Source: a virus
Virus record (IMG/VR): IMGVR_UViG_3300045125_000034
Coordinates: 1 to 64,000 of that record
Length of the DNA: 64,000 bases
Strand: one strand, 5' to 3'
The notes under the pieces are model-generated. The model made no database searches and was not told where the DNA came from. It was given only the letters and a program-made list of their open reading frames with translations. Positions 38,134 through 64,000 of the stretch are shown piece by piece. Position 1 is the stretch's first letter. Every line of letters starts with the position of its first letter. Made by a program: the position numbers and the translations under genes.

Positions 38134-38136
38134 CTT

Positions 38137-40177: not shown

Positions 40178-40180
40178 TTA

Positions 40181-40255
<75 letters not shown>

Positions 40256-41473: not shown

Positions 41474-41545
41474 TCCCGAGTAGCACAGCGGTAGTGCAAT
41501 CGGCTGTTAACCGATGGGTCGTTGGTTCAAATCCAACCTTGGGAG
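41474..41545 (+). tRNA. tRNA-Asn(GUU)
   Basis: ATCGG-CTGTTAA-CCGAT. Confidence 0.93.
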
Positions 41546-41581
41546 TTGACAATACTTGGTTAGATGCTATACTACCTGTAT

Positions 41582-41655
41582 GGGATCGTAGACCAACGGC
41601 AGAGTCAACGGATTTAAAAATCCGTAAAGTATGGGTTCGAATCCCATCGGTCCTA
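41582..41655 (+). tRNA. tRNA-Leu(UAA), short variable-arm type
   Basis: ACGGA-TTTAAAA(A)-TCCGT; the extra A is probably a homopolymer error. Confidence 0.8.
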
Positions 41656-41659
41656 TAAT

Positions 41660-41744
41660 GCGGAGTGAAGCTGGAATTGGCATACACGGCGGATTCAAAA
41701 TCCGCTGCCCTCTAAAGGCGTGTGGGTTCGAATCCACCTCCGCA
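41660..41744 (+). tRNA. tRNA-Leu(CAA)
   Basis: GCGGA-TTCAAAA-TCCGC; long variable arm. Confidence 0.85.
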
Positions 41745-42697: not shown

Positions 42698-42779
42698 GTC
42701 GGTGTGGTGAAATTGGCATACACGAAAGATTTAGGTTCTTTTGCCGCGAGGCGTGTGGGTTCGACTCCCTCCACCGACA
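42698..42779 (+). tRNA. tRNA-Leu(UAG)
   Basis: AAAGA-TTTAGGT-TCTTT; long variable arm. Confidence 0.9.
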
Positions 42780-42784
42780 TTCAC

Positions 42785-42858
42785 AGTCCCATAACTCAAC
42801 GGCTAAGAGTGCTTCCTTTACACGGAAGAAGTTGTAGGTTCGAATCCTATGGGGACTA
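42785..42858 (+). tRNA. tRNA-Val(UAC)
   Basis: CTTCC-TTTACAC-GGAAG. Confidence 0.9.
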
Positions 42859-42860
42859 CT

Positions 42861-42934
42861 GCCACCTTAGCAGAGCGGTAATGCGTCGCTTTTGTAAAGC
42901 GAAGATCATGGGTTCCGATTCCCCATAGGTGGCT
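42861..42934 (+). tRNA. tRNA-Thr(UGU)
   Basis: TCGCT-TTTGTAA-AGCGA. Confidence 0.88.
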
Positions 42935-47888: not shown

Positions 47889-48303
47889 ATGACACGCGAT
47901 GAACTGCTCAAGATTCGTGAAGACCTGACTACCAAGGCTCGCAACCTGATGAAGAAGAAGAACGCCGACTTCACGCAGGTAACGACGGGTTGGAACCGAT
48001 TGCAAATTTCACTAGAGTTGAAGGGCTAGGGCATCTGCACCACCGAACAGGGCTTCCTAGTCCGTATGACCGATAAAATGAGCCGCCTTTCGTCATTTGT
48101 TGAGTCCGGTAAGTTGGCAGTAGAGAGATGAATCTTTTGAAGATACCCTTGTAGATGTTGTAAACTATGCCGTTTTGATGTATGCTTACATACATGGCAA
48201 GAACACCAAGTCTACTCCTGTGTCTGTTCATAGCGAACCTTCTCACCCTTTCGTTCCCAAGTCAAGTTGCTGCAAGCACCAAGAACGGCAACGGACGGTT
48301 TGA
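47889..48303 (+). CDS. DUF1599 / nucleotide-modification-associated domain protein
   Basis: KKNAD(Y)...ANF...VRMTDKMSRL...ESFEDTLVDVVNYAVL. Confidence 0.75.
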
Positions 48304-48309
48304 GGAGTT

Positions 48310-48688
48310 CATTATCAATCCGTGGTCTGACACCACAGCAAACCCGTCAACTGTTGAACGCTCTGCTACAAGCTGAGAGCGGTGGCAAAGACAACGCTGT
48401 TGGTGACAACGGCAAGGCGATTGGTCCATATCAGACTTGGGAAGTGTATTGGAGAGATGCTGTTGAGTACGACCCGTCAATCGGTGGCAATACTCGGACT
48501 GCACTAACCGTGCATACGCAGAACGGATTGTGGTAATATACCGCAATCGCTATGCTTCCAAGGGTGCGACCTACGAGACTCTTGCTCGCATTCACAACGG
48601 CGGTCCATCAGGTTACAAGAAGAGTGCTACTATCAAGTATTGGAACAAGGTGAAGAATGAACTTAGAAGATCATCTATCAGGAAGTGA
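48310..48688 (+). CDS. i-type (destabilase-like) lysozyme
   Basis: QAESGG..AVGDNGKAIGPYQ..YWRDA...LARIHNGGP..YWNKV. Confidence 0.8.
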
Positions 48689-49081
48689 TGGGTATACCCC
48701 AGAACAACAAGAGGTTCCTTCTAGATTTGCAACATGTGCTTGCTAGTAAAACCAATCACGGAGTTTCACAAGGATAGGGGCAGAAGAGACAAGTTCAAGA
48801 GGCATCCAGCATGCAATTTGTGCTTGAAAAAGCATCAGAAGGTGGTAGCAAAAATTAGGAAAAACGCACCTCCAAAACCAACCGTATGCGAATGCTGTGG
48901 CAGAAATCCCGACACGGATACCACTATCAGAGGTTGGGCTATGGATCATGACCACATCACAGAAGAATTCCGTGGTTGGATATGCCAAACCTGCAACATT
49001 GGCTTGGGGCATTTCAAAGACTCTGTTGAAGGTCTTGAGAGAGCAATAGATTACTTACAAAGAACAAGTAAACGGAAATGA
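48656..49081 (+). CDS. Endonuclease VII-domain HNH protein
   Basis: CECCG...MDHDHITEEFRGWICQTCNIGLGHFKDS...AIDYL. Confidence 0.85.
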
Positions 49082-49086: not shown

Positions 49087-50411
49087 ATGGAAGACAGCAG
49101 ATACCAAATCATTGAAGGCGACTGCATCACAGGGAATGAAGACGCTACCCGATGGGTGCGTCCATACCATAGGTAACATCCCCACCGTACTATGGTCTTC
49201 GTGACTATGACGGCGGTGAGGCAGAGATCGGAGGCGAAGAGACCCCGATGACTATGTGAAGAAGATGGTTGAGGTGTTCAGGGAAGCCAAGCGTATTCTC
49301 CGAGATGATGGTACGCTGTGGCTGAACCTTGGTGACACCTACGCTACTACAAGCGGCGGAATGGAGCAGTTGCGTAAGTTGGGAGGTCAGACTCAAACTA
49401 CGGAGCGGTGAAGTACTCCGAGGGGTACAAGGGTGTGTCACAGAAAGGTAAGGATGGAGCCAAGAAGAGCGGTCTCAAGCACAAGGACTTGATCGGTATT
49501 CCTTGGAGAGTCGCACTTGCTCTACAGGCTGACGGTTGGTATCTCCGTCAGGACATCATTTGGAACAAGCCAAATCCCATGCCCGAGAGCGTGACCGACC
49601 GTTGCACCAAGTCTCACGAATACATCTTCCTGCTGACCAAGCACCCGAAGTACTACTACGATCACGAAGCAATCAAGGAGCCTGCGACCACATCTCCTAT
49701 GTCAAGAGACAAGCAGGGAGAGGGCTATCAGGCAGACTATCCTCACGGTGATCGTTTCTCTCCCGGGCGAAAGAGTGTGGGGAGCGGACGGCAAGCGTAA
49801 CAAGAGGTCTGTGTGGACTGTGACTACCAAGGCGTACAAGGGAGCGCACTTTGCTACCTACCCCAAGGACTTGATTGAGCCTTGCGTCCTCGCTGGGTAC
49901 GAGCGAGCATGGGTGCTGCTCCAAGTGTGGTGCCCATACAAGCGTACAGTAGAAAAGCCTACGCAAAACTTGGAGCCTGTTGATCCTATTGAGCGTAAGG
50001 AGAGTAGCGCTTACCCCTGAAGATAGTGCTATAGTTCTGTGGTTAGAACAGAATGGTGGCGACTACCGAATCTCCGTTGACGGCGACAAGCACACGGAAC
50101 AATGGAACGACATTCCTATCAGTAATGGCAGAAGAAGTGAGTTCAAGAAGAAAGGCTACACCATTCTCACACATGGGGAGAGGGGAACCAATAGCAACAG
50201 GGTGGGTTCAGACCTGTGAGTGTTCCGATTCCACCACCGTTCCCTTCGCACAGTTCATTCGACCCGTTCACAGGCAGCGGCACGACTGCGGTCGTTTGCT
50301 ATGAACCACTTGGACGCAAGTACATCGGTACAGAGTCGAACCCCGAGTACTATCAAGTTGGCTGAGGGCAGGATAGCCGAAGAAGCACCCCTAACTCTAT
50401 TGGATTCCTAA
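49087..50411 (+). CDS. Beta-class N4C/N6A DNA methyltransferase with Zn-finger insertion (frameshifted)
   Basis: TSPPYYGLRDY, IPWRVALALQADGWYLRQDIIWNKPNPMPESV, HFATYP, DPFTGSGTT. Confidence 0.9.
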
Positions 50412-50413
50412 CG

Positions 50414-50689
50414 ATGAACAAGTTGAGACCGATTGGAAAGTGGATTGAAGCTCTAGACTGTTGGTGGTGGCGAGAAGACCACAGAGAGTGGTATCATCTA
50501 CACCGAGAAGATCTCGCTCTCAGATGGTGTGGAGCACGGTCATGTCTATCGTGGCGAAGCAAGTTGACCGAGGACATCTAAGGTTGGAGAGACAAGGTTC
50601 TGTGGGACACCTCCAAGATCAGGGGCGGTGGCCACGGCAATAACAATGTGATCCATCAGGATTGGATCTCTATGGTGGAGAGAAAGTGA
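50414..50689 (+). CDS. groES: GroES-like co-chaperonin (frameshifted)
   Basis: LRPIG, EKTTESGII, KVGDKVL. Confidence 0.7.
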
Positions 50690-51433
50690 TGGACAAGACA
50701 GTATTCATTCCTATTCCGACACGCAATCATAACAACTATCTAAAGCACTATCTTCGGTGCATAGATGAGTTGGGACTATCCCAAGGATAAGATAGTCACT
50801 TCCACATCAAACAACAAACAACAACGATGATGACACTGCTAGCTACTCTTAACTTCATGGATGAACAAAAATCACCGAAGTTACAAGAAGGTAATGTTTG
50901 AGCACGGCGACTTCTCTGTTCTTCAGAAAGACATGGGGTGGCAGGACAAGGATGGAATTAGACTTCGCATCATGTCTATCATTAGGCTTAGAGAAGTTTG
51001 GATTTGTGCAAGCAAGAGTGGTGCGAGCTATTTCTTCCCTATGGATACGGATAATTGGGTTGCTCCATTCACATTGAAGTACCTAATTGATGATGATTGC
51101 CTTAGTAGCACCATTCATGAAGGACTTTATGGCAGAAAGAGAAATCTGGCGCTCCAGTTACTTCTACAAGGTAAACGAGTGGGGATTTATGGCAGTAAAG
51201 ACCCCAACCACGAATCATTCAACATATGCGGCACAGACAAAGGCCCGGTGTGGAACCATAAAGGTAGATGCTGTGGTTCATTGCACATATCTTCTTGGTT
51301 GCAGTTACATGTACAAAGGTCAAGTACTATGACGGCAGCAATCAATGGGAATTGCACCTTGCTAATTAGTGCTAGAACAAACGGAGTAAATCGTCGCAGT
51401 ACATCTGTAACGAAGGATGTTTGGGTTTGTTAG
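50689..51433 (+). CDS. GT-A glycosyltransferase (frameshifted)
   Basis: VFIPIPTRN, NN..DDT, FPMDTDN (DxD), VHCTYL. Confidence 0.6.
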
Positions 51434-51559
51434 GTATGCGAAACAATAGTGGATCGTGATGACTGTTATGACCTTATGTCATCTAAATGCCTCAAAGATA
51501 ACAAAAGAGTGACGGACAAAGATGTTGTGTTTTTCGGGGCAACACAGCAAGAATAACAC

Positions 51560-52290
51560 AAATCCAATCTATGCTAAACGAAAAATAGCCTGTGAAGAAA
51601 CATGGCTAAAGGATATTGATACAAGCAAGTACTGTTGTAACCACCATAAACGACCCATCACACTATGAGTTTCAACAGAATCCAGAAAAGAAATACCACT
51701 TTTCCGATGAGGAAGAGTCTTGTTACATAAACGCACCAGATAGTTGGCATTCTTGCTATGACAGAACTAAGATTTTCTAGAGTGGGTATGAATGAAACAA
51801 CATCTCAGTATTTTGGAAAGTTGATGATGATACTTTTATCAATGCGAATAGATTCAATACCTACGAAGATTACAAGAACAAAGACTCTATTGGACTACAG
51901 TATTTCTATAACAATCATTCTAAACTAAATGTGCCGGGTTACTTTATGCATGGAGCGGAGTGTTGTGTATCTCGTAGAATTTTAGGGAATGTGTTGGATA
52001 AATGCCTCTACCAATCAAAGATGACTATGTAAACCACGAAGATTATGACTTGGGGTACGTAATCAGTAATCTCATACCCGATGCTGTGGTCCATTCTCGA
52101 TTCTGATATACATCCAACAATAAATGAAACCTCTCCAGAAACTTTGAATTCGGGCAAGAAGATAGACAATCTATTACTTGCTGCCCCGTTCCTCCTGATA
52201 AGATGGTACTTCTTCACAAGATGTATTCGAATAGTGGCAGGAAAGACATGGAAACAATGCACAACTACTACAAGGACGGCAATTGAACTT
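51560..52290 (+). CDS. GT31/Fringe-like glycosyltransferase (frameshifted)
   Basis: FWKVDDDTFIN, YFMHG. Confidence 0.55.
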
Positions 52291-54839
52291 CTACACCCAT
52301 GTAGCCGTCAAAGGCTCTAACATCCTCTTCCGTGGCTAATGAGAACGGTAAGAAGGTTTCCTACAAGGCAGACTTCGCACCGACTCTGTTTGTTCCCGCC
52401 AAGGGCAAGAAGACCGAGTGGGCTTACCCTTGATGGCAAGCCTGTAGAGCCATTCCAACCCGGCAGCATCCGCGACTGCAGCGAGTTCATCAAGGAGTAT
52501 CGTGGGGTGAGCGTGGTTTTGAGATATACGGTAACTCCGAGTGGGTCTATCAGTACATCGGCAAGCAGTACCTCAATGAAGTTGAGTACGATCCTTCGCT
52601 ACTTCGTGTTGGGTTCATAGAACATTGAGACCGAGAGTGAGGATGGATTCCCTAACATCAAAACTGCTACCGAGAGAGTCAATGCTATCACCCTGAAGGT
52701 CAAGGGCAAGACATTGGTGTTTGGCTTGGGTAAGTTTGCCCTGCCCGATTCCAAGTGCTTCCAGTACGATGACGAAGCCAAGATGTTGCAGGAGTTCCTT
52801 GCAGCATGGGAGGCTTTAGACATAGACATCATTACGGGATGGAACATCAACTTCTTTGACATCCCATACCTTGTCAACCGCATCACACGACTGTTCGGTG
52901 AGAAAGAAGCCATGCGTCTTTCCCCGTGGAGAGACATTCGCTCCCGAACAGTAGTTGTGATGAACAAGGAGAACGAGGTCTATGACTTGTTGGGGATAGC
53001 AACCCTTGACTACTTTGACCTGTACCGCAAGTTCACATATGTGAATCAGGAGTCCTATGCCCTGAACCACATTGCTTGGGTGGAGTTGGGGGAGCGTAAG
53101 AAGCACTACGAAGGAACCCTGTCTGAATTCTACAAGAGAGACTTTCAGAAGTTCATTGAGTACAATCAGCACGATGTTGCTCTCGTAGAGATGCTTGAGA
53201 ACAAGTTGAAGTTGCTTGAACTATCGTTGGCTCTAGCCTACTCCGCTAAGGTGAACCTCAACGATGTCTTCTCGCAGGTGCGTACATGGGATGCCATCGA
53301 TTATCACCACCTGACCAAGAAGAAGATCGCTATACCCATGAAGCGTGGGGATGCTGAGAAGGAAGACAAGTTTAGAGGGAGCCTATGTGAAGGAGCCTCT
53401 TGTGGGCAGTCACGATTGGGTAGTCTCGTTTGACTTGGACTCGCTGTACCCGCACCTCATCATGCAGTACAACCTCAGCCCCGATACCAAGGTGGTTGAC
53501 CGACAGGGTAGAGCCTCTAGCCTACACGGTAGAGGACTTCCTCACGCAGAGACACGCGGGTGCGGACACGCCCACGCGGGCGGTACATGGAGAGATGTTT
53601 GACAAGGGTTACTGTCGTTGCTGCTAACTGCGTCTGCTTCACCAAGAGCAAGCAGGGCTTCCTGCCCGAACTCATGGAGACCATGTATGAGGAACGCAAG
53701 GCTTTCAAGAACAAGATGCTTGAAGCCAAAGCGACACTAAAGAAGTTAGGGGAAGATGCTCCTGCCGATAAGGTCAAGCAGTTGAAACTTGACATTACTC
53801 AAGTACCACAACTTTCAGTTGGTGCGTAAGATTCAGTTGAACTCTGCGTTCGGTGCTTGTGGCAACCAATACTTCCGCTACTACGATCCGCAGATAGCCG
53901 AAGCCATCACCTATTCGGGTCAGTTGTCCATCCGTTGGATTGAGAACGCTCTGAACAAGTTCTTGAACAAGACTCTCAAGACCAACAGGATAGACTACAT
54001 CATCGCAAGCGACACGGACTCTGTATACATCCGTCTTGGTAACTTGGTCAAGCAGATCATGCCCAATGAGACTGACCTGCAGAAGATCACCAAGTTCCTG
54101 AACCGCTTCTGTAACGAAGTCTTGCAGCCACTCATCAACAAGGAGTTTGTCCAACTCGCAGAACAGCAGCAGGCTTACTCGCAGAAGATGAACATGAAGC
54201 GAGAGGGTATCTGCTAGTCGTGGCATATGGACGGGCAAGAAGCACTACATCCTTGCCATATGGATGGGCGAGGACAATGTGCTGTTGCAGAAGCCTGAGA
54301 TCAAGATGATGGGTATTGAGACTGCCAAGAGCAGCACCCCGTTCATCGTGCGTGAGGCTCTGAAGAAGGCTATCGGTATCATCATCAACGGAAATAGGGA
54401 GGAGTTGGTCTCGTTCGTTGGTTCCTTCAAGGAAACCTTTAACGGTAGCCCCGTGGAGGAGATAGCGTTCCCGCGTGGGTGCAACAACCTCAAAGAGTAC
54501 AAAGACCCAACGATGATCTACAAGAAGTCTACCCCAATCGCCGTGAAGGGTGCGTTGATTTATAACCATTGGCTACGCGAGAGGAACCTGACCAAGAAGT
54601 ACCCTCTGATAGGTGACGGAGAGAAGGTCAAGTTCATCTATCTGCGAATGCCCAATCCCGTGAAGGACAAGGTTATTTCGTTTAGCGGCAAGATTCCGAA
54701 GGAGTTTGGGCTGGAGGCGAAATACATAGATTATGAGGCTCAGTTTGATAAGTCCTTCGTAGTCCCCCTTACTACTATCACTAACTTGATCGGATGGAAC
54801 ATCTTTGAAATGAGTACCTTGGAGGATCTATTGTCATGA
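52283..54839 (+). CDS. gp43: Family B DNA polymerase (T4 gp43-like), frameshifted
   Basis: ITGWNINFFDIPYL, YNQHDV, SFDLDSLYPH, KIQLNSAFG, ASDTDS, MGIETAKSSTP. Confidence 0.97.
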
Positions 54840-55015
54840 TTATGCAAATGCTTGGATTGGTGATTGGCGTATGTGCAGGTTACCTTTTGGGTCTGTTTGT
54901 CTACGAGCAGATGCAACCTCATAGCAGAGAAGCGTCGTAGGCGTAAGATCCGAGAAGAACTTGACCGTCTGTTCAATGACCGATAAACTACACTATTCTA
55001 AATGGAGTATACACA

Positions 55016-56082
55016 ATGAGCGACTTTCTAAAGAGCATGATTCGTGCTTCGGGTAACGAGTGGGCAACCATAGCAGAGGATGGAGTTGATGGTGATGTTG
55101 CGGGCTTTGTAGACACAGGCTCGTACATCTTCAACGCTCTCCTGTCGGGTTCACTCACAGGCGGTATCGCAAGCAACAAGATCCTTGGTATCGCAGGCGA
55201 GAGTGCTACGGGCAAGACCTACTTTGCCCTTGGTATCGCCGCACAGTTCTTGAAGGACAATCCCGATGGAGCGATCCTCTACTTTGACAGCGAGCAGGCT
55301 GTTACGAGTGAGATGATCTCAGGCAGAGTGTCTTGACCCCGCTCGCGTAGCCGTATTCCCTGTGGCTACTGTGGAGCAGTTCCGTCATCAGTTGCTACAG
55401 ATCATAGACAACTACGGCAAGTTGGACGAGAAGAAGCGTAAGCCCTTCTTTGTGGTGTTGGACCTCGCTAGGCATGTTGAGCACTAGCAAGGAAACCAAC
55501 GACACACTTGAAGGCAAGGAAGTCAGGGACATGACTCGCTCGCAGGTTATCAAGGGAACCTTCCGAGTCCTGACCATGAAGTTGGGTCTGCACAAGATCC
55601 CGATGGTTGTGACGAACCACACCTACGATGTCGTTGGTGCGTATGTTCCGACCAAGGAGATGGGTGGTGGTAGCGGTCTGAAGTATGCTGCGTCTACCAT
55701 CGTTTACCTGTCCAAGAAGAAGCATAAGGTAGATGACGAGGTTGTGGGTAACATCATTCATTGCAAGTTGTATAAGGCTCGCTTCACCCGCGAGAACAAG
55801 ATGGTTGATGTGCTACTTACCTTTGACAAGGGGCTAGATAGATACTATGGTCTAGTTGACCTTGCTCTCTCGCAGGTAGTGTTCAAGAAGGTTTCCACCA
55901 AGATTGAACTACCCGATGGGACTACCGCCTTTGAGAGTCAGATCAACAAGAACCCCACCAAGTTCTTCACTGAGCAGGTCATGAAGTCCCTTGAGGCAGC
56001 AGCCGCGAAGGAGTTCAAGTACGGTAGCGACAGCGAAAGTGAAGTAGAAACAGAAAAGGAATTGGAGACAGCAGATGAGTAA
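55016..56082 (+). CDS. uvsX: UvsX RecA-like recombinase (frameshifted)
   Basis: [42 protein letters not shown]. Confidence 0.95.
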
Positions 56083-56755
56083 GTTTTTGAGCATAGTAGT
56101 TCCGTATAGAAACAGGCAAGAACATCTTGCGGTGTTTGCTCCGCATATGGAAAAGTTCCTTTACGACTTGGGTATAGAAAACTTCAAAATACTTATTGTT
56201 GAACAGGATGATCCACTCGTGAGGTCAAGCATTCAACAGAGCAAAACTTTTGAATGTTGGATTTGATTTGAGTAAGGACTATGACTATTTTTGTTTCCAC
56301 GATGTCGATATGATACCTACCGAAGCAGACTACAGTTGGGTGGATGAACCTACTCACATGGCAACAGAGTGTTCACAATTTGGATATCAGTTGCCATATG
56401 GTGGTTACTTTGGTGGGGTCACTCTATTCAATAAGCAAGACTTTTTGGATGTAAATGGTTACAGTAACGACTACTGGGGTTGGGGAGCAGAGGACGATGA
56501 TATGATGCTTCGTTGCTATTCTAAAAACAAATTGCACCCTCCTGCACATACCAAGAAGGCGTGGAAGATATGAATCTCTAAGCCATCAGAGAAGAATAAT
56601 ATTGAATGAGTATAAGGGGAACATACAAAAACTACAGACACTAAATCCAGATAATGTCTGTTTAGAGGGGTCTGAACACCCTTCATATGAGACCCTTGAT
56701 ATCAATCCGTATCCCAATACACAGCATACAACAATAGTAAAGGTGTCTATATGAG
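56075..56755 (+). CDS. GT7 beta-1,4-galactosyltransferase-like protein
   Basis: [42 protein letters not shown]. Confidence 0.9.
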
Positions 56756-57549
56756 TAAAGGTCTAATACTTGGGTCTTCAAAGGGTCTTTCTCTAGACCA
56801 ACTATATCCTTGGGCATCTTCTGCTTCAGAAACAGGGAATAGAGTTGTGTTACTTAACATGGATGGAGAGAGTAACAAAATGCTATCCCTTCAGTTAAAG
56901 GGGATTGGGATTGAAGTCAGGGATGTTGTTTCCGACAACACACTATCTCCGCATAATGCTAGATTTGTGGCTCAACACGAATACTTAAGCCGGGCGCGAC
57001 GAGGAATATTGTGTAATCACAGATGTTAGAGATGTTTTGTTTCAGGAGTGATCCAATAGAATGGATCACCAATAACATAGAAAATTATGATGTTGTATGT
57101 GCTAGTGAGGGTCTTCTTTATAAGGACGAACCTTGGGGTAGAGGTAATTTGATAGAGGGGTATCCCGATTTGTATGAGAGCCATAAAGACAACCCAATCA
57201 TGAATGTTGGTGTTATTGGGGAAATGCAGAGGAAGTTGCAAAGGTTTGTCTTAGAATATTTGAAATGTGCAAGGCAAACAAAGCATACTTAGCAGATCAA
57301 TCGTCTTTTAATGTTATCTGTGCTGACAGCACTATGCAGAACAAAATAAAGAAGACAACATCAAGAGATCCTTTTGCCTTGCATTGTAGTTGCTTGATTA
57401 GAAACTGCCGAGGTAGTAGTTTTGTCTTGAATGAGTCTACGGTTCATCTGTTAAAAGATCCCGAACCAATAAACGAAAAAGGAGTTCTAAAAACTCCGAG
57501 TGGTATCCCTTATTCTATAGTGCATCAATGGGATAGGATGCCGTCATGA
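56751..57549 (+). CDS. Putative GT-A glycosyltransferase (frameshifted)
   Basis: ITDVRDV, DQSSFN, IVHQWDR. Confidence 0.65.
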
Positions 57550-58348
57550 AAACTGTTTGCAGAAGATATCCCGATTGGTTAAATTTTGAATTGGATTTCC
57601 CTACAGAGATTCATTTACAATACCCAGAATTTCCATTTGACCCCAAAGATGGGGTATACCGAGTGTATTGTGATTCCTTTGAGCCATCGACTTCTTGTGC
57701 AAATCCAAAACAAATAAGTAAGATATTGCTCCTGTATGACCTCATTCTTACGAAAAATGAAAACATAGTTTCGGAATATCCAAACGCTAAGTTGTTCTTC
57801 TTTGGTAATTCTATGATGTATCCTGATGTTCCCGGCAGGAAAGAATTCTCCGTGTCTTTCTTGACAACAAAACCCAATTGGCATTTGCCGGGCTATGATT
57901 TGAGGTATGAACTGTGGGGCAAACAAGACGAGATACTTATCCCCAAGGTATTCTATAGTTCAAGAAGAATGCCAATAGATTCTTCTCGTATACTTCCGGG
58001 AGATGGCGGGGACAAGGATAAGATGTTGATGTTTGAATCAATGTTTCACATAGCAATAGAAAATACCAATGAGAAGAACTACTTCACAGAGAAGATAAAC
58101 GATTGTTTTTGGACGGAAACAGTACCCTTGTATTGGGGCAACAAAGATACAATCAACAGTAAATTTGACTCTCGGGGGTAATACACTTCCAATCAATACC
58201 AGAACTGATAGAGTTATGCAATTCTCTAACGCCCGACGATTACACTTCTAGGCTTGAGAGTATAAAGAACAACAAAGAACTATCTAAAGAATACTCAAGG
58301 CATATGAACGAACGCATCCGTGATGAAATTTTAATGAGAAGAAGATGA
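57546..58348 (+). CDS. GT10 alpha-1,3-fucosyltransferase-like protein
   Basis: FHIAIENT...YFTEKINDCF..TVPLYWG. Confidence 0.85.
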
Positions 58349-59072
58349 AGTGGTGTTTTGGAATAGTGTTCAATGGTATTGACTATTTGAGCAGACAAAT
58401 AGTCTCAATCAAGAACCAAGAGGGTATCTGTACAAACGACTATCAGATAATTTTAGTAGGGTCCAAGCACAGACGAATCTTCAAGATTGATTTCTTCGTT
58501 TCGGTCTGAAGGAATAGATATCTCTCTTATACCGTTTCAAGACACATCCGAAATGGGCTGGATAACTAAGAAGAAGAATCTTGTGGCTTACATGTCCAAG
58601 TACGAGAACTTAGTTATAACACACGACTATGTTGGTTTCTGCCGTGGGTGGTATAGAAATTTTGTTGAGTTTGGTGAGGATTGGGAGGTGTGCATGAACT
58701 CAATAAGAAGAGATGATGGTAGAAGGTTTAGGGATTGGATTACCTTTAAGGAATGGTGGGGTTGGCCTCTATTTCTTCCTTATGAAGTTACGGATCAAAC
58801 ATCCAAAATGTATGTTAGCGGAACTTATTGGTGCGCGAAGAAACACTACATGGTCAAAAACCCATTAAACGAAAAATCTAAGATGGGGGCAGGGTGAAGA
58901 CCTAGAGTGGTCTCATAGATGCAGGCACACTTGGAACTATAAGATAAACAAGAACTCTGTAGTTAAGTTGATGAAAGAGAAATTATGGAAGGGACAGCCC
59001 GACTATAGCCCGCACCCAGATACTGATCCTAATGTTGATGAAATTCTTACATCGTCAGAGGTTCAACCATGA
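58345..59072 (+). CDS. GT2-like glycosyltransferase (frameshifted)
   Basis: WITKKKN, LVITHDY, GEDLEWS. Confidence 0.65.
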
Positions 59073-59517
59073 AGGTTATAGCACACAGAGGAAATGTGTT
59101 TGGTCCGATACCTCTAAGGAAAACAATCCAAAGTATATTGAAGCAGCATTAGATCTTGGGTTTGATGTTGAGATTGATGTTTGGTTTGACGAGAGTGATT
59201 CGTGCGCGGGGTATTATCTCGGTCACGATCATCCCTTGTATAAAATTGATGCCTCTTGGTTGATGCGTGATGGAGTTTGGTGTCATGCCAAAAACCAGAA
59301 GGCACTAGAAAGAATGTTTTGTGACAAAATCCCCAACTATTTTTGGCATCAGGAAGATAGATTCACCATAACTAGTAGAGGTGATATATGGTGTTACCCA
59401 AACAATCCTAGTCGGTCGGGGATATTAGTCGATGTAGGTAGACCCAAACGAGGTCTTGATATTCGTGGAGTGTGTACAGACTACGCAAATGAATGGAAAA
59501 TGGAGTATAGAACATGA
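59069..59517 (+). CDS. Glycerophosphodiester-phosphodiesterase-like (PLC-like) protein
   Basis: IAHRGN, EN, GFDVEIDVW, LGHD, WCHAKN, GVCTDY. Confidence 0.8.
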
Positions 59518-60481
59518 AAACACTAGACATTTTTTACCTCACCTTTTCTAGACCAAACTTTCTTATTGCTCATGCTAGGGAAATAGCAGCAGCAATAAAG
59601 AAGAAGCCGGTGGTGAATTCAGTTGTATTTTTGGGCAATCCCAGCAGAATTCCTCAAGAAATTAAAGATCAACTCAAGGCAATTCTTGGTTCTAAACTCG
59701 TTATAGAAGATCACTACAAGAATCGAAGAGTACATGGCTAAACTTGATCGTATAGCCAGTTCTAAATCAGACTATACGATGAAGATTGACGAGGATTGCT
59801 ACATGACCTCCGAATCTTGGGTTAAGATGTTTGATTTGATGGACGAGATACAAGACAACGATTTGTTTGGTACTGGTTGTATAACAAACGGTATACCAAC
59901 ATGTGATCTTTTTCTTCAGAACCACGCACCAAAAGTAAAAGATCGAATCGAAACTGACTATTTCTGCAAGGCTCAGTTTTACCCCCATAAATGGAGCAGA
60001 TTATAGGGTGCTAAACCATCCATCATTGAAGATGAAATGGAATCCCGATCTTTTCTGGCATCTATTGTCTACAGTAAATCACCCCTATCAGGGGATTCAC
60101 CCCATGCGTCTTATGGGGGACGCAAACATAGTTCTAAACGATCACATAGTCAACAACTTTGATGAAACTATGCTTCCTAAAGACCTTCCTGTTATACACG
60201 AAAAGGACAAGTACCCCCATTACTGTCCCCAAGTTCTTTTGATGAAACCAGAAAATCTAAAGAAAGTCTTGTCTTCCAAAGAACTTTTTTATGACATGTA
60301 CGACGAAGTACCGCTGAACTTGTATAGAGAAAAACACGGAATGGCAATGGCTATAGGTGTAGGAATTCCAATACTTCATACTATGTTTAACTGGTCTCAG
60401 CAGTATGAATATGAAAGAACTCTTATAGATCGTTTGTGCAAGATATCTGAAGACCGCCATCAAAAAGAAGTATTCGTATGA
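59514..60481 (+). CDS. Putative glycosyltransferase (frameshifted)
   Basis: MKIDED (DxD-like), HPMR, YDE. Confidence 0.55.
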
Positions 60482-61205
60482 CCCCGATGAAGTTCAGGTA
60501 GTTATACCTCTTGCGGGGGAAGGCAAAAGATTTAGAGACAGGTATTCTTGCCCAAAGCCTCTCATAGACATAAGAGGCGAAAAGATGATATCTTTAGCCT
60601 TTAGAACTTTAGATATTCCTCACAGCAAAGCAGTATTCATAATACGATCAGATCACGATTACGATGGTATGTTATCAAAAACCATAGAGGAATTTTGTCC
60701 GAAAAGTTCTATAGTAGTTGTTGATAAATTGACAGAAGGTCCGTGCTGTACCGCTTTGTTGGCAAAACCACATTTAGAATCAGATAAACCTCTCGTTGTA
60801 GCGAATTGCGATCAGGTTATGAGATGGAGTGGTTCTAGGTTTATAAGATATTGTATAAGAGAAAACTATGATGGGGTTGTAGTAACCTATCATGAAGCCA
60901 CACCGAAAAATAGTTACGCTCGTTTAAACAAAAATGGGGATGTTGTTGAAGTAAGAGAGAAGAATCAGATAAGTTGTGTATCTTTGAACGGCATACACTA
61001 TTGGAAGAGAGCAGATTATTTCTTCGAATCTTCCGAAAAGATGATGAAAGCAGATGATAGGACTAACAATGAGTTTTACATTGCTCCCTCTTACAATTAC
61101 ATGATTGCTGATGGGCATACCGTTGGTATCTACCACATTCCCAATGAACAGCATTATGCTATCGGTACTACTCAAGATTTGGAGACCTACATAGGATAGG
61201 ACACA
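60478..61205 (+). CDS. Sugar-phosphate nucleotidyltransferase
   Basis: VIPLAGEGKRF, PKPLIDI, LTEG, ANCDQ, EK, NEFYIAP, IGT. Confidence 0.85.
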
Positions 61206-61218
61206 GAACGAGGTTCCG

Positions 61219-61548
61219 TGATGATAGTTGATATGATTCAGAACTATGTCTCGTGGGTGGTTTGTTGGAGACTTCGAACCTAGTATTCACAAAACTGATA
61301 AATTTGAAGTAGGCGTTCTTACCCACAAGAAGGGCGAGAAGTGGGCTGCTCATTACCATAAAGAAGCAAGAGAGATAAACCTTCTACTTGAGGGTAAGAT
61401 GTTGATGCATGGAGTGGAGTTGCAAGAAGGATCCATTTTTGTTCTTGAGCCTTGGGAAGTAGCAGATCCAATATTTCTTGAAGACTGCAAAGTTCTAGTA
61501 ATCAAAACCCCGTCTATAAAAGGAGACAAATATGAAGTTGTTTGTTGA
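61219..61548 (+). CDS. Cupin-fold protein
   Basis: GWFVGDFEP, HYHK..EINLL..GK. Confidence 0.75.
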
Positions 61549-62789
61549 TGAAAACAGCATTGATCGTGAGAAGTATTTTGTTGTTACCTATATGGTCGAG
61601 TCTGATAAAAGTCTTAGAGATGCTGCTTGGAATATTGCCATAGGTCAAAGTGTCGGAAACCCAAATGTTAGGGGAACAGGTGGGAGACCGGAAGACCTGT
61701 TTAAAAATCATTCGTGTCTCATCCTCGGGGACGAAGGGGAACTTAGTGTCCAAAAAATAGGAAAGGTCAAGATTGCTTTCCCCGTAATCAATACAGATTG
61801 GGAAACAGACGGAATTAGCCATTTCATGTGCCAAGTCATGGGTGGGCATGTGGACATTGATTTGGTTAAGAGATGTCGTGCTATTGATATAGATTTCCTG
61901 CATAGTGTTACAAAGCACTTCAAAGGTCCACGGTTTGGAATAACGGGAATGCGTGAATTTACAGGGCAATACGATAAGCCACTTTTGGTGCTATCATAAA
62001 GCCTAAGATTGGAATAAGCCCAGAGACACTATTGGATATGGTTAAGGAACTAGTAGAAGGTGGGGTTGACTTCTATAAAAGAAGATGAAATCATGTCCAA
62101 CCCATCATTCTGCCCGCTAGACACTCGGGTGGGTATGATCTCCAATTACTTGGCATCACAATCAAGAAATGTGGTATTTTGCCACACCATAAACTGCGAT
62201 CCGCATGTTCTAGAAAGTAGAGTTAGTCGCATACATTCTCTTGGCGGTAATGGAGTACACATCAATGTATGGAGTGGGTATGGTTCATACAACAGCATAC
62301 GAAAGATGGATCTGCCGATATACATTCATTTCCAGAGTAGTGGAGCAAAAGTCACAACCAACATTACAAATCAGTTCAGTATTAGTTGGCCTGTCATCTG
62401 CAAATTGGCAACAATGATGGGAGTCGATACCATTCAGACGGGAATGGTTGGTGGATACAGCAACGATAATCCCGAAGAAATTCTAGAGTGTGTTCGTATT
62501 TTACAACAGGGGAATACTGTCCCTGTCCTGAGTTGCGGATTGCATCCGGGTCTTGTTGATAAGATAACCTCACTAGTAGGTAACGACTATTTGGGCAATG
62601 CTGGCGGTTCAATTCACGGACACCCAAATGGAACACTATCGGGTGCTAGAGCAATGCGTCAGGTCCATAGACAAAACTTATGGGGTCGAGTACAATGAGG
62701 CAATAGCCAAATGGGGTAAGGTTCAGCCCGAATTCAACATAAAGCAGTTGTATGAAACTGTAGAGTACCAACTAAATTCTAAGGAGTAA
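61532..62789 (+). CDS. RuBisCO-like protein (form IV RLP), frameshifted
   Basis: KGPRFGITGMR, IIKPKIG, GGVDFIKEDE, PVLSCGLHPG, AGGSIHGHPNG..GARAMRQ. Confidence 0.92.
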
Positions 62790-62796
62790 ATGTAAT

Positions 62797-63403
62797 ATGC
62801 AATGGCAAACAGATCTAATAGCAGACATTCGGTTTAATGATCCTAACATAGATGATAGAGATGATGTAACCGGCTTGTTTCTGGCTATGGGTAGACATTT
62901 CGAATTTACGAATGACAACCATACAGCATTACAGAAGGCAATAAGTGCCTGTAGAACTCCCCCAAAAACTTTTTGAAATTGGTGTGTGCAGAAATGCATC
63001 ACAGTCATCTACACATACTATAATAAAAAATGTTCCATCGGACGGGGTTTATCTCGGTGTGGATCTTGATGACAAGACATTTTTAAACGACGCATCAAAG
63101 GGTATACACACCATAAAAACATCATCTTCAAACTACGATGAGGTTGTTAATAGATTAACTAGTCTTGGTGTTAAGACTTTGGATTTCATATTCATTGATG
63201 GTTGGCACAGTATAAATCAGGTTCTTAAAGATTGGGAGTATACAAAACTATTGTCTGACGGTGGTGTTGTTGGGTTCCATGATACTCGACTGCATCCGGG
63301 TCCGCACTATTTTATAAACAATCTGAATAGAGATAAGTGGGAAGTACACTCCAATCTTTGCCCCAATGATTGGGGTTTGGGATATTGTAGAAGAAAGGAT
63401 TGA
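62797..63403 (+). CDS. Class I SAM-dependent methyltransferase (frameshifted)
   Basis: FEIGV, GVD, FIFIDGWHS, GGVVGFHD. Confidence 0.8.
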
Positions 63404-63407
63404 TAAC

Positions 63408-64000
63408 TTGAGAAAACTGCATTAGTCACAGGAGCGTCGGGTTTCATCGGCTCAAACTTGGTTGACCATCTTGTTGGTTTGGGGTGGGATGTTGTTGGTA
63501 TAGACAATGAATCTAGCCTAGCCCACGACAAGTTCCACTACAACTCAAAGGCATCATATGTACCAAAGGATGAAGCAGACATCTCTACAGAGAAGCCTTG
63601 GAAGGCATTAGCCAACCATAAGTTTGACTATGTGTTTCATATGGGTGCAGAGTGTCGTATTCAGCAATGCATAGAGAATCCTGCCCTATGCATATCAACT
63701 AATGTTTTAGGTACAGTAAAGACTCTTGAATACGCCGCGAAGATAGGAGCAAAGAGACTTGTGTTCTCGTCCACCTCCTCCATATACTCAGGCTGTGACT
63801 ATGCAGCAGATGAGAACGAAGAGCCGATCTGCATCAATCCCTACGCTTCCACTAAACTTTCGGGAGAGGTCTTCTGCAAGCAGTACAGTATGACTACTGA
63901 GTTGGATACGGTTGTGCTTCGTTACTTCAATGTGTACGGCGAGAGACAGCCAATCCGTGGTTCGTATGCTCCTGTAATCGGTGTGTTTCAACGACAACTA
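63408..64000 (+). CDS. NAD-dependent sugar epimerase/dehydratase (runs off the window)
   Basis: LVTGASGFIGS, FSSTS, YASTK, LRYFNVYG. Confidence 0.9.

What the first reader, a model, noticed from the sequence alone, without database searches (positions are those of the whole stretch)
50689..64000. AT-rich glycosyltransferase islands flanking gp43-uvsX
Seen: about seven glycosyltransferase-like genes (GT7, GT10, GT2, GT31-like, others) in two visibly AT-richer blocks (50689-52290 and 56075 onward) around gp43/uvsX, with a DUF1599 protein and a DNA methyltransferase upstream. Established: in T4 the gp43-uvsX interval holds gp42 and beta-glucosyltransferase for DNA hypermodification. Inference: these genes build an oligosaccharide on phage DNA, the virion, or the host surface. 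No hydroxymethylase is visible in this window, so the acceptor is open.
Basis: partly seen in the sequence, partly recalled or inferred. Interest (0 to 1): 0.7.

Follow-up and report, generated by a model that had tools for sequence, protein, structure and literature searches.

The report
Glycan-building gene islands in T4-like phage
A T4-like aquatic phage carries two AT-rich, swappable gene islands beside its DNA-replication genes that encode seven sugar-transferring enzymes and a sugar-activation cassette with a RuBisCO-like enzyme; comparable islands are known in related phages, and what they decorate is still untested.

Summary
The window is the first 64 kb of a 145-kb T4-like (Kyanoviridae-like) virus contig. 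Its genes, including gp43, uvsX and gp41, are broken by single-base indels, which I read as assembly errors, so genes were read through intact relatives. Block 1 (50689-52283, GC 0.40) holds an Anp1-like and a Fringe-like glycosyltransferase (GT). Block 2 (56075 to about 64340, GC 0.405, the AT-richest stretch of that length in the contig) holds five more: GT7, a GT6-like fold, GT10, a GT2-like protein and a GT-A fold. It also holds a mini phosphodiesterase, a nucleotidyltransferase, a cupin, a RuBisCO-like protein (RLP), a methyltransferase and an epimerase/dehydratase. No island protein examined in relatives has a membrane segment. The contig shows no hydroxymethylase, TET/JBP or T4-type DNA glucosyltransferase. 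Both sites are flexible. Phages with uvsX at least 75% identical always have a large insert after uvsX, with changing content; more distant ones have a compact junction. Best reading: a glycan-assembly island acting on a non-DNA acceptor, most likely host envelope-glycan precursors, with virion proteins a close rival. Multi-GT islands are known in cyanomyoviruses, phage RLPs were reported in 2018, and this scan found the RLP cassette before on other DNA. This is a new member of a known kind.

The parts
48002..48228 (+). DUF1599-like small protein (context, upstream)
   Evidence: blastx to intact ORFs of relatives. Those ORFs hit PF07659 at 1.1e-4, 23.0 bits, below the cut-off of 25.
48237..48670 (+). 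lysozyme-like protein (Destabilase/SLT; context)
   Evidence: Window fragment hits Destabilase at 3.4e-5. Intact homologues L088 and L085 hit Destabilase at 4e-10 and SLT at 5e-6.
48725..49078 (+). endonuclease VII-like (context)
   Evidence: Pfam Endonuclease_7, 9.4e-16.
49094..50413 (+). N6/N4 DNA methyltransferase, split over three frames
   Evidence: Pfam N6_N4_Mtase on three fragments. tblastn with the L126 methyltransferase gives 73-89% identity.
50414..50683 (+). Cpn10/GroES-like co-chaperonin
   Evidence: tblastn with L126:5573-5836 gives 52% identity, E 1.9e-21. That ORF hits Pfam Cpn10 at 8.7e-7.
50689..51550 (+). Block 1, GT 1: Anp1-like GT-A glycosyltransferase (frameshifted)
   Evidence: tblastn to residues 1-295 of the L126 766-aa ORF and to L127:5848-6669. 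Those hit Pfam Anp1 at 1.2e-4 and 1.4e-3, below the cut-off. The window fragments have no Pfam hit and no homologue in the 5.8-billion-protein search.
51564..52283 (+). Block 1, GT 2: Fringe-like (GT31-clan) glycosyltransferase (several frameshifts)
   Evidence: tblastn to L126 residues 324-539 gives 52% identity. That stretch hits Pfam Fringe at 1.2e-9, over the cut-off.
52283..54839 (+). gp43 DNA polymerase, in five frame pieces (core gene between the islands)
   Evidence: tblastn with S-CREM1 gp43; blastx to relatives.
55016..56079 (+). uvsX recombinase, in three frame pieces
   Evidence: tblastn and blastx.
56075..56751 (+). Block 2, G1: GT7 (beta-1,4-galactosyltransferase-like)
   Evidence: Pfam Glyco_transf_7C at 1.4e-22 and 7N at 2.3e-7 on window fragments. 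The intact L083 homologue hits both over the cut-off. The DVD and WGxEDDD-type motifs are visible.
56757..57546 (+). G2: GT-A glycosyltransferase with a GT6-like fold
   Evidence: blastx to L083:2669-3454. phrog_1579 'glycosyltransferase' at 1.3e-6. AF2 model pLDDT 89.3; Foldseek top hits are alpha-1,3-GalT/GTA/GTB at 1.8e-10, TMq 0.56.
57537..58345 (+). G3: GT10 (fucosyltransferase-like)
   Evidence: Pfam Glyco_transf_10 at 8.9e-6, over the cut-off, on a window fragment. L083 and L008 homologues hit at 3e-8 and 3.6e-13. A VENxxxxxYxTEK-type motif is present in L083.
58345..59069 (+). G4: GT2-like GT-A protein (start approximate)
   Evidence: blastx to L008:11088-11855. The family has 455 or more homologues without Pfam. 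Its profile hits only glycosyltransferases in the PDB sequence search, best 8bz8 at 2.7e-4. Atlas neighbours are GT2/GT7C clusters at 0.98.
59107..59514 (+). G5: miniature GDPD-like phosphodiesterase (about 145 aa)
   Evidence: blastx to L008:10699-11133. The family alignment A1 has an invariant HRG...E...D...H pattern. Its profile hits glycerophosphodiester phosphodiesterase 7e0v at 2.1e-4.
59514..60478 (+). G6: GT-A fold glycosyltransferase of a rare family
   Evidence: blastx to L008:7457-8428. Eleven homologues, no Pfam. AF2 model pLDDT 88.8; Foldseek top hits are GalNAc-T3 at 5.8e-7 and GlfT2.
60486..61196 (+). G7: sugar-phosphate nucleotidyltransferase
   Evidence: Pfam NTP_transf_3 at 7.5e-5 on the window ORF. 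The L008 homologue hits at 8e-8 and hits NCBIfam RmlA/GlmU-type models weakly.
61237..61548 (+). G8: small cupin
   Evidence: Cupin_7 at 2e-3 on the window ORF. The family representative hits Cupin_7 at 3.3e-5 and Cupin_2 at 3e-4. phrog_24762 at 4.8e-32.
61532..62786 (+). G9: RuBisCO-like protein (form IV-like), with internal stops and one frameshift
   Evidence: Pfam RuBisCO_large at 6.6e-20 on a window fragment. The intact L008 homologue hits at 1e-35; all NCBIfam equivalogs are far below cut-off. Residue pattern read.
62797..63403 (+). G10: class I SAM methyltransferase (Methyltransf_24, CmcI/TylF-like)
   Evidence: Pfam at 9.6e-7; blastx to L003 and L005 homologues.
63416..64000 (+). G11: NAD-dependent sugar epimerase/dehydratase. 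It runs to about 64340, past the window end; gp41 follows at 64357.
   Evidence: Pfam Epimerase at 7.9e-28. The own-genome search gives 63419-64150 at 8.6e-43 with one in-frame TAG. 78% identity to L083:7100-8035.

Best explanation
The two AT-rich blocks are flexible, horizontally exchanged glycan-biosynthesis islands. They are inserted at two junctions of the replication module of a T4-like phage: methyltransferase|gp43 and uvsX|gp41.

Shown: together they encode seven soluble GT-like enzymes (Anp1-like, Fringe-like, GT7, GT6-like fold, GT10, GT2-like, GT-A). They also encode a supply and tailoring set: nucleotidyltransferase, small cupin, RuBisCO-like protein, mini GDPD-like phosphodiesterase, SAM methyltransferase and an SDR epimerase/dehydratase. 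All lie on the same strand as the replication genes.

Inferred: the SDR and the nucleotidyltransferase-cupin-RLP module supply activated sugars, one of them unusual. The RLP keeps the metal/carbamate site and one phosphate site but not the carboxylase residues, so it would enolise or isomerise a mono-phosphorylated keto-sugar. The GTs then add residues one by one to a growing hetero-oligosaccharide in the cytoplasm, and the methyltransferase caps it.

Committed guess for the acceptor: host envelope-glycan precursors (LPS core, O-antigen-type lipid-linked intermediates) that the host's own export machinery carries outward. This would remodel the receptor layer of the infected cell, excluding rival phages or stopping progeny from re-adsorbing.

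Likelihoods: that the island builds a glycan on something other than DNA, about 0.85. That the acceptor is the host envelope, about 0.4.
For: Gene identities.

Flexibility. Block 1 is absent where the methyltransferase abuts gp43 (L085, L087, L088, L089-L091) and present in L126 and L127. The closest relative, L083 (78-80% nucleotide identity), shares GT7, G2, GT10 and the SDR, but has a HAD hydrolase, an unknown gene and another nucleotidyltransferase in place of G4-G10.

Unbiased sample through uvsX (80 loci). Of 48 with gp41 downstream, 46 have it within -34 to 1,992 bases and 2 at 6.0-7.1 kb. All 7 loci with uvsX at least 75% identical and more than 5 kb of downstream sequence lack gp41 within 5 kb.

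Foreign composition: GC is 0.40 against about 0.50 in the flanks, and the same holds in 5 of 6 relatives.

Against DNA as acceptor: no PF00303, Tet_JBP or T4 beta-gt match in 145 kb.

Context of the RLP cassette. In 80 viral loci, by single-linkage clusters, the RLP sits with a nucleotidyltransferase in 74, a GDPD-like protein in 68 and a cupin in 51. The surrounding genes include GT1/GT2/GT17/WavE, FkbM and C-methyltransferases, carbamoyltransferase and radical SAM enzymes. In 3 of 4 cellular MAG loci examined it lies among GT2/GT1/GT8/GT25 (LPS-type) genes and methyltransferases. This points to a cell-surface glycan origin for the pathway.

From established knowledge (recalled): bacterial members of GT10, GT6, GT31-like and GT25 act on LPS, LOS or O-antigen intermediates at the cytoplasmic face and are soluble.

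Literature: the same reading was proposed for the 24 'LPS' genes of P-SSM2 (PMC1079782, passages read), for pelagimyophage GTs (PMC7029224, passages) and for S-SCSM2R (PMC12801897, passages).
Against: No biochemical or expression data exist for any of these genes.

The islands encode no initiating phosphoglycosyl transferase, flippase, polymerase or ligase. None of 27 island proteins of L083, L008, L126 and L127 reaches the hydropathy threshold for a membrane segment. None of 201 + strand ORFs of 100 aa or more in 11 related loci has two or more such segments. Export would therefore depend wholly on the host.

The phage looks lytic (T4-like), which makes a costly envelope remodelling less obvious than for temperate phages.

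The host is unknown, and psbA was not found in 145 kb.

In this contig every gene is broken. Functionality is inferred from intact relatives, not from this sequence.

The Anp1-like assignment is below Pfam's cut-off. G4 rests on weak profile hits and a language-model lead.
Confidence: 0.4

Rival explanations
1. Virion glycosylation. The soluble GTs decorate phage structural proteins (capsid, fibres, tail) in the cytoplasm during assembly, using the island's own activated sugars. Chloroviruses, mimiviruses and some mycobacteriophages do this.
For: All island proteins examined are soluble and no export component is encoded. Only 17 of 1,743 proteins within 9 kb of the RLP in 80 viral loci have three or more predicted membrane segments. 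The island pairs its own sugar-activation genes with its GTs, as giant-virus glycosylation systems do (recalled). In relative L126 three GT-A domains are fused into one 766-aa ORF, an arrangement that recalls multidomain chlorovirus GTs (recalled). In some viral loci the RLP cassette sits next to neck and tail genes gp14 and gp15 (clusters 49 and 50). The contig encodes a collagen-repeat protein, and lower-ranked fold hits of G2 and G6 include collagen glycosyltransferases. Virion glycosylation by phage GTs appears in mycobacteriophage literature (search listing only).
Against: No glycosylated T4-like virion is known to me. The islands lie in the replication module, not among structural genes. 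Cellular homologues of the cassette sit in cell-surface glycan clusters. No acceptor protein was identified.
Confidence: 0.3
2. DNA hypermodification. The GTs glycosylate modified bases of the phage genome to evade restriction, as T4 alpha-gt and beta-gt do.
For: Position beside replication genes and a DNA methyltransferase. T4 keeps beta-gt near uvsX and gene 43 (recalled map). The S-SCSM2R paper suggests DNA glucosylation as one possible role for its GTs (PMC12801897, passage).
Against: No ThyA-type hydroxymethylase. No Tet_JBP and no T4 beta-gt family match, though nothing rang in the controls of those two searches. Only ThyX was found. The families found (GT7, GT10, Fringe/GT31, GT6-like, GT2-like) have glycan or protein acceptors in all characterised members I know (recalled). 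Seven GTs plus a methyltransferase and an unusual-sugar cassette far exceed what base glycosylation needs.
Confidence: 0.05
3. Decaying passenger DNA. The islands are recently acquired, non-functional cargo, and the broken frames are real pseudogenes.
For: Low GC and patchy distribution. Every island gene in this contig is interrupted.
Against: The essential genes gp43, uvsX and gp41 are interrupted just as often. Against L083 there are 81 indels in 8,642 aligned columns, 46 of them single-base, inside and outside the islands. In-frame stops are a mix of 17 TAG, 21 TGA and 8 TAA opposite many different residues. All relatives examined have clean, tightly packed ORFs for the same genes.
Confidence: 0.03

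Closest known systems
'LPS' / cell-wall-modification gene clusters of cyanomyoviruses: P-SSM2 (24 genes in two clusters; PMC1079782, passages read), S-SCSM2R (13 GTs including GT10; PMC12801897, passages read), S-SM2 (annotated region)
   Same: T4-like phages with large optional clusters of GTs, nucleotide-sugar epimerases and nucleotidyltransferases. The clusters are absent from close relatives, untested in function, and proposed to act on the host surface.
   Different: The insertion sites differ: here methyltransferase|gp43 and uvsX|gp41, in S-SM2 after nrdAB and the tRNAs. The gene set also differs. By tblastn against 50,697 GenBank phage records at E 1e-5, GT7 has 0 matches, the RLP 0, G2 one non-cyanophage match, and GT10 only 14 partial matches at 29-46% identity.
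Glycosyltransferases in hypervariable regions of pelagimyophages (Zaragoza-Solas et al. 2020, PMC7029224, passages read)
   Same: Uncultured T4-like aquatic myoviruses whose non-syntenic islands carry many GTs and sugar-synthesis genes. They were read as host O-chain modification that prevents co-infection.
   Different: There most lie in the host-recognition cluster among tail-fibre genes and GT8 dominates. Here the islands lie in the replication module, with GT7, GT10, GT6-like and Fringe-like families.
Phage 'form IV-like' RuBisCO-like proteins (Jaffe, Castelle, Dupont, Banfield 2018, bioRxiv 10.1101/386292, passages read)
   Same: A divergent RLP on myovirus contigs from IMG/VR that groups with Beckwithbacteria proteins. 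A Beckwithbacteria locus was also recovered here (L136). Carboxylase residues are missing.
   Different: In the passages I read, that paper leaves the function unclear and does not describe the nucleotidyltransferase-cupin-GDPD-glycan context. I did not read its supplements. This scan has noted the cassette on other DNA before.
T4 DNA glucosylation (gene 42 hydroxymethylase with alpha-gt and beta-gt; recalled)
   Same: Phage GT genes near uvsX and gene 43 in a T4-type replication module.
   Different: No hydroxymethylase and no beta-gt family match. Different GT families. Far more genes. gp43 and uvsX are adjacent here.
Minimal DXD-type GT6 of cyanophage P-SSM2 and marine metagenome homologues (PMC3516806, passages read)
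   Same: A small, soluble phage GT-A enzyme whose nearest structures are the blood-group A/B and alpha-1,3-Gal transferases. The G2 model's top Foldseek hits are these enzymes.
   Different: G2 and its homologues give no Pfam GT6 hit at E 0.001 and no tblastn match to P-SSM2. The likeness is one of fold, not shown membership.
Virus-encoded virion glycosylation (chlorovirus and mimivirus capsid or fibril glycans; mycobacteriophage capsid/tail glycosylation; recalled, search listing only)
   Same: Soluble viral GTs together with virus-encoded sugar activation and methylation, including multidomain GT fusions.
   Different: No evidence here that any virion protein is glycosylated. The hosts and virus lineages are unrelated.

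Membership tests
GT7 (beta-1,4-galactosyltransferase family; Pfam Glyco_transf_7N and 7C) | Both Pfam domains over the curated cut-off | tested here: met
   Window fragments: 7C 79.5 bits (cut-off 23), 7N 30.9 and 27.3 bits (cut-off 27). Intact L083 homologue: 7C 84.5 bits, 7N 72.4 bits.
GT7 | DXD metal motif and the WGxEDDD-type acidic loop | tested here: met
   Both motifs are visible in the translation of window 56223-56570. That these are the family's signature is recalled, not computed.
GT10 (alpha-1,3/4-fucosyltransferases; Pfam Glyco_transf_10) | Pfam C-terminal domain over the cut-off, and the ENxxxxxYxTEK-type motif | tested here: met
   25.9 bits on the window fragment, 34.0 (L083) and 50.0 (L008) against a cut-off of 23.9. 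The motif is present in L083; its status as the family signature is recalled.
GT31 clan / Fringe-like | Pfam Fringe or Galactosyl_T over the cut-off | tested here: inconclusive
   Met in relative L126 (Fringe 38.3 bits against 21; Galactosyl_T 42 against 23). The window's fragments give no hit even at E 10. The link is tblastn at 52% identity to the Fringe-hitting stretch of L126.
Anp1 / GT62-like | Pfam Anp1 over the cut-off | tested here: not met
   22.1 bits (L126) and 18.6 bits (L127) against a cut-off of 28.8. Called 'Anp1-like GT-A' only.
GT6 (alpha-1,3-Gal/GalNAc transferases) | Sequence membership (Pfam Glyco_transf_6) and fold | tested here: inconclusive
   No Pfam hit at E 0.001 for L083 or L008 G2. 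The model's best 50 Foldseek hits are almost all GT6 enzymes (1.8e-10, TMq 0.56).
GT-A fold glycosyltransferase (G6, G4) | Rossmann-like GT-A fold with an acidic DXD-type motif | tested here: met
   G6: model pLDDT 88.8, 383 PDB matches at E 0.001 or better, led by GT27 and GT2 enzymes; invariant D98-E99-D100. G4 is weaker: only glycosyltransferases among 5 PDB profile hits, best 2.7e-4, plus an Atlas lead. No structure was predicted for G4. hhalign between the G4 and G6 families found no relation.
Bona fide RuBisCO (forms I-III) | Full set of catalytic and substrate residues (spinach numbering, recalled: K175, K177, K201, D203, E204, H294, R295, H327, K334, S379, G403, G404) | tested here: not met
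   Alignment of the L008 homologue to type III enzymes. The KPK, K-x-D-E and GG positions are kept. The positions of H294/R295, H327 and K334 are replaced. All NCBIfam RuBisCO and MtnW equivalogs score far below cut-off (best 193 bits against 497).
RuBisCO-like protein, phage 'form IV-like' clade | RuBisCO_large homology without carboxylase residues; phage or Beckwithbacteria affiliation | tested here: met
   Pfam RuBisCO_large at 1e-35. 114 related stretches in IMG/VR. A Beckwithbacteria locus is among 9 cellular hits. No phylogeny was built.
T4-type DNA glucosylation system | dCMP hydroxymethylase (ThyA family) together with alpha-gt or beta-gt | tested here: not met
   0 matches for PF00303 with a working control. 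0 for PF09198, with no positive control. The contig is 67% complete and frameshifted.
Seroconversion systems of temperate phages (Gtr-type, O-antigen modifying) | Membrane-embedded flippase, bactoprenol GT or serotype-specific GT | tested here: not met
   No hydropathy window reaches the membrane threshold in 27 island proteins of relatives. This is a simple Kyte-Doolittle scan, not a trained predictor.
Glycerophosphodiester phosphodiesterase (GDPD) | Full-length (about 230-250 aa) TIM-barrel with the HR...E...D...H catalytic set | tested here: inconclusive
   Only the N-terminal 50 residues align to GDPDs (7e0v at 2.1e-4). The protein is about 145 aa. H6, R7, E35, D37 and H49 are invariant in 29 sequences.

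The most novel reading that the evidence does not exclude
The island is a self-contained virion-decoration kit. Soluble GTs of families best known from animal Golgi glycosylation (a beta4GalT-like GT7, a GT6-like enzyme, a GT10 fucosyltransferase-like enzyme and a Fringe-like enzyme) would build a LacNAc/Lewis/ABO-like oligosaccharide on phage structural proteins. The chain would be capped by a methylated or phosphodiester-linked unit made through a non-carboxylating RuBisCO-fold enzyme. That would make this the first glycosylated T4-like virion and give the 'form IV-like' RLP clade a biosynthetic role.
Probability: 0.2. Interest if true: 0.75.

Novelty: new member of a known kind. Interest (0 to 1): 0.4.

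Why it matters
Optional glycan islands are among the largest blocks of unexplained genes in abundant aquatic T4-like phages. Host resistance to such phages often maps to cell-surface sugar genes (recalled). Knowing whether the phage islands rewrite the host's receptor layer or coat the virion would change how phage-host and phage-phage competition in plankton is read.

This locus adds three things:
- A defined pair of insertion hot spots around gp43-uvsX.
- A GT set (GT7, GT6-like fold, rare GT-A families) that is nearly absent from cultured phages.
- One more instance of the RuBisCO-like sugar-activation cassette, whose chemistry is untested.

The contig itself is too error-ridden to use as a template; intact relatives such as L083 and L008 are the ones to use.

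Tried and rejected
Stop-codon recoding as the cause of the short ORFs. Reading TGA as sense lengthens frames but gives overlapping, messy ORFs. In-frame stops are a mix of all three codons opposite many residues. Rejected in favour of indel errors.

DNA similarity of both blocks to GenBank phages: no match.

Block 1's 196-aa fragment: no homologue in the 5.8-billion-protein search at near lengths, nothing convincing in the Atlas (best score 0.89, recognition below the usual level), and no Pfam, PHROG or NCBIfam hit. It was resolved only through L126 and L127. A second scan with the 78-aa fragment returned no loci.

PDB profile searches: the G2 profile (A2) and the first, heterogeneous G4 alignment (A3) gave only chance-level hits.

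hhalign between the G4 and G6 families: no relation. My by-eye guess that G4 was GT9-like was dropped.

Promoter-like and terminator-like sites in 48.5-64 kb are not enriched over shuffles (19 against 28.7 expected; 14 against 11.4), so transcription units could not be defined.

Own-genome searches for PF00535 (GT2) and PF13640 (prolyl-hydroxylase type) found nothing. A collagen-hydroxylation link therefore has no support here.

Public sequencing runs holding this DNA: none was listed, so the frameshifts could not be checked against reads.

Full report
WHAT THE DNA IS. The window is bases 1-64000 of a 145,204-base linear IMG/VR virus record, estimated 67% complete. The gp43-uvsX stretch matches 464 GenBank phage records at 60-90% nucleotide identity, mostly Synechococcus and Prochlorococcus myoviruses; the best is S-CREM1, Kyanoviridae. 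The gene order around the finding is gp45, gp44, regA, a DUF1599-like gene, a lysozyme-like gene, endonuclease VII, DNA methyltransferase, [block 1], gp43, uvsX, [block 2], gp41. No psbA was found in the 145 kb, so the host is not established as a cyanobacterium.

SEQUENCE QUALITY. The longest + strand ORF between 44 and 64 kb is 239 aa. S-CREM1 gp43 aligns in five pieces over three frames and uvsX in three pieces. Against the closest relative, L083 (78-80% identity), there are 81 indels in 8,642 aligned columns. Of these, 46 are single-base, 23 insertions and 23 deletions, and as listed they fall in mixed sequence contexts rather than mainly in homopolymer runs (read by eye from the listing, not tallied). 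The 46 in-frame stop positions inside blastx alignments are 17 TAG, 21 TGA and 8 TAA, opposite many different residues. Reading TGA as sense does not give a clean gene map. Relatives have intact, tightly packed ORFs for the same genes. I conclude that the breaks are assembly errors and not recoding or decay. All gene calls below come from aligning the window to intact ORFs of relatives. I could not check reads, because no sequencing run was listed.

THE OBSERVATION. Block 1 (50689-52283) has GC 0.401. Block 2 (56075-64339) has GC 0.405. The neighbours gp43, uvsX, gp41 and the methyltransferase have 0.497-0.529, and the contig mean is 0.471. Block 2 is the lowest-GC stretch of its length in the contig. 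In 5 of 6 relatives the corresponding islands are likewise 7-10 points AT-richer than their flanks; L089 is the exception.

Block 1 follows a Cpn10-like gene (50414-683). It consists of an Anp1-like GT-A gene and a Fringe-like gene. The window's fragments gave nothing in Pfam, PHROGs, NCBIfam, the large protein search or the Atlas. Two IMG/VR relatives carry the same arrangement: methyltransferase, Cpn10, GTs, gp43. In L126 the GTs are a 766-aa triple fusion that hits Anp1 (1.2e-4, below cut-off), Fringe (1.2e-9) and Galactosyl_T (1.2e-10). The window aligns to its residues 1-539 at 39-52% identity.

Block 2 holds eleven genes:
- G1, GT7: both Pfam domains.
- G2: PHROG 'glycosyltransferase'. 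Its AlphaFold model (pLDDT 89.3) is closest to GT6 alpha-1,3-Gal/GalNAc transferases (1.8e-10, TMq 0.56).
- G3, GT10.
- G4: a large Pfam-less family. Its profile hits only glycosyltransferases in the PDB (2.7e-4), and its Atlas neighbours are GT2/GT7C clusters.
- G5: a roughly 145-aa GDPD-like protein.
- G6: a rare family of 11 proteins. Its model (pLDDT 88.8) is a GT-A fold, closest to GalNAc-T3 (5.8e-7) and GlfT2.
- G7: nucleotidyltransferase.
- G8: small cupin.
- G9: RuBisCO-like protein.
- G10: Methyltransf_24.
- G11: SDR epimerase/dehydratase.

The DNA methyltransferase is confirmed. DUF1599 is seen only below threshold.

THE RuBisCO-LIKE CASSETTE. The intact homologue (L008) aligns to type III RuBisCOs and MtnW enolases at 1e-35 to 1e-39. 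It keeps the KPK and K-x-D-E positions and the GG phosphate loop. It lacks the residues at the positions of H294/R295, H327 and K334 (numbering recalled). It scores far below every NCBIfam equivalog cut-off. It is therefore not a carboxylase. Keeping the metal/carbamate site and one phosphate site suggests enolisation or isomerisation of a mono-phosphorylated keto-sugar; this is inference.

At least 114 IMG/VR stretches encode relatives, of which 80 loci were kept. By single-linkage clustering, which can merge neighbouring families, 74 of the 80 have the nucleotidyltransferase cluster, 68 the GDPD-like cluster, 51 the cupin and 34 a methyltransferase. The commonest order is nucleotidyltransferase, cupin, RLP. 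The surrounding genes are GT1, GT2, GT17, WavE, FkbM and C-methyltransferases, carbamoyltransferase, radical SAM enzymes, SDRs and a kinase. The cassette sits at different places in T4-like genomes: near gp44/45, regA, uvsX/gp41 or gp14/gp15.

Nine cellular genome or MAG loci encode relatives, including a Beckwithbacteria and a complete Verrucomicrobiae chromosome. In 3 of the 4 examined, the RLP lies among GT2/GT1/GT8/GT25 genes, methyltransferases and radical SAM genes. In the fourth it sits in a small island near a transposase.

Jaffe et al. reported about 90 such phage RLPs and left their function unclear (10.1101/386292, passages read). This scan has flagged the same cassette on other DNA at least eight times. 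My results agree with those notes and were derived before I read them. No RLP relative was found by tblastn in 50,697 GenBank phage records.

HOW STABLE ARE THE ISLANDS. These loci were fetched with GT7 or RLP queries, so the counts are biased towards island-bearers:
- Eight loci show gp43, uvsX, GT7 and then variable genes (L083, L085-L091).
- Six relatives have the methyltransferase directly abutting gp43 with no block 1 (L085, L087-L091).
- Two have block 1 (L126, L127).

An unbiased sample fetched with uvsX (80 loci) gave the following:
- 48 loci have gp41 downstream.
- In 46 of them gp41 starts -34 to 1,992 bases after uvsX.
- In 2 it starts 6.0 and 7.1 kb after.
- All 7 loci with uvsX at least 75% identical to L083 and more than 5 kb of downstream sequence lack gp41 within 5 kb.
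- Six more distant loci with more than 3 kb downstream also lack gp41.

So a large insert after uvsX is a persistent trait of the window's clade, while its gene content turns over. L083 replaces G4-G10 with a HAD hydrolase, an unknown gene and another nucleotidyltransferase. GT proteins are also more diverged than the flanks: 50-77% identity for GT7, G2 and GT10 against 76-91% for uvsX and 78% for gp41 and the SDR.

WHAT IT MOST LIKELY DOES. The shown facts are the gene families, their soluble nature, the foreign composition and the flexible distribution. The rest is inference. The set looks like a complete cytoplasmic glycan-assembly line: sugar activation and epimerisation, an unusual-sugar module, seven transferases and a methyltransferase.

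DNA is an unlikely acceptor. No hydroxymethylase, TET/JBP or T4-type GT was found (the last two had no positive control). ThyX is the only thymidylate-synthase-type gene. The families present act on glycans or proteins wherever they have been characterised (recalled).

Between host envelope and virion the evidence is thin. For the host envelope: the cellular context of the cassette, the LPS-type families in sister islands, the precedent of bacterial GT10, GT6 and GT25 enzymes acting on LPS intermediates (recalled), and the standing literature hypothesis. For the virion: the complete lack of membrane or export components (0 of 27 island proteins; 17 of 1,743 neighbours with three or more segments), the self-sufficiency of the island, a triple-GT fusion like those of chloroviruses (recalled), and known virion glycosylation in other viruses (recalled; listing). 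I put the host envelope at about 0.4, the virion at 0.3, DNA at 0.05 and decay at 0.03, with the rest unassigned.

COMPARISON AND NOVELTY. Optional multi-GT islands in T4-like cyanophages and pelagiphages have been known since 2005 (PMC1079782; PMC7029224; PMC12801897; S-SM2). The phage RLP clade has been in print since 2018. What is particular here:
- The pair of insertion sites flanking gp43-uvsX.
- A GT set with almost no counterpart in cultured phages.
- The co-residence of GT7, a GT6-like fold, GT10 and a Fringe-like enzyme, families that together make LacNAc/Lewis/ABO-type glycans in animals (recalled; only a lead).

I class it as a new member of a known kind. Interest is moderate, lowered by the poor sequence quality and by the cassette's earlier sightings in this scan.

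Noticed in passing
window 1-64000 and the rest of the contig: Pervasive single-base indels and mixed in-frame stops break nearly every gene, including gp43, uvsX and gp41. The contig looks like an unpolished error-prone assembly, so any gene-level finding on it needs intact relatives.
   Followed up: yes
window 35901-42934: An array of 14 tRNA genes. One, at 41581-41656, is reported with a four-base anticodon (taaa) and no amino-acid assignment. Given the contig's indel rate, this is probably an inserted base in the anticodon loop rather than a frameshift-suppressor tRNA.
   Followed up: no
window 50414-50683: A Cpn10/GroES-like co-chaperonin gene lies between the DNA methyltransferase and block 1. 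It is found in the same place in relatives L126 and L127.
   Followed up: partly
L126:5812-8112: A single 766-aa ORF fuses three GT-A domains (Anp1-like, Fringe-like, Galactosyl_T) directly upstream of gp43. In L127 the same region holds two separate genes.
   Followed up: partly
L093-L125 (IMG/VR loci fetched with the GT7 fragment): Many other viral contigs carry tandem arrays of three proteins of about 480 aa with GT7 domains, unlike the single 223-aa GT7 of the window's clade.
   Followed up: no
contig 109539-110276, minus strand (L129:539-1276): A collagen triple-helix repeat protein (Pfam Collagen, 3.1e-16) near baseplate genes (gp8, baseplate wedge), in the second low-GC region of the contig (about 111-122 kb).
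   Followed up: no
contig 77674-77814: A ThyX (Thy1) fragment is the only thymidylate-synthase-type gene found. No ThyA-family gene was found.
   Followed up: partly
L138 (Verrucomicrobiae chromosome), L138:9001-11227: On a complete bacterial chromosome the RLP sits with two small unannotated ORFs next to a DDE transposase, away from obvious glycan genes. The other three cellular loci examined differ in this.
   Followed up: no
whole contig: No psbA (Photo_RC) match in 145 kb, although the nearest cultured relatives are cyanophages. The host may not be a cyanobacterium, or the gene may lie in the missing third of the genome.
   Followed up: partly
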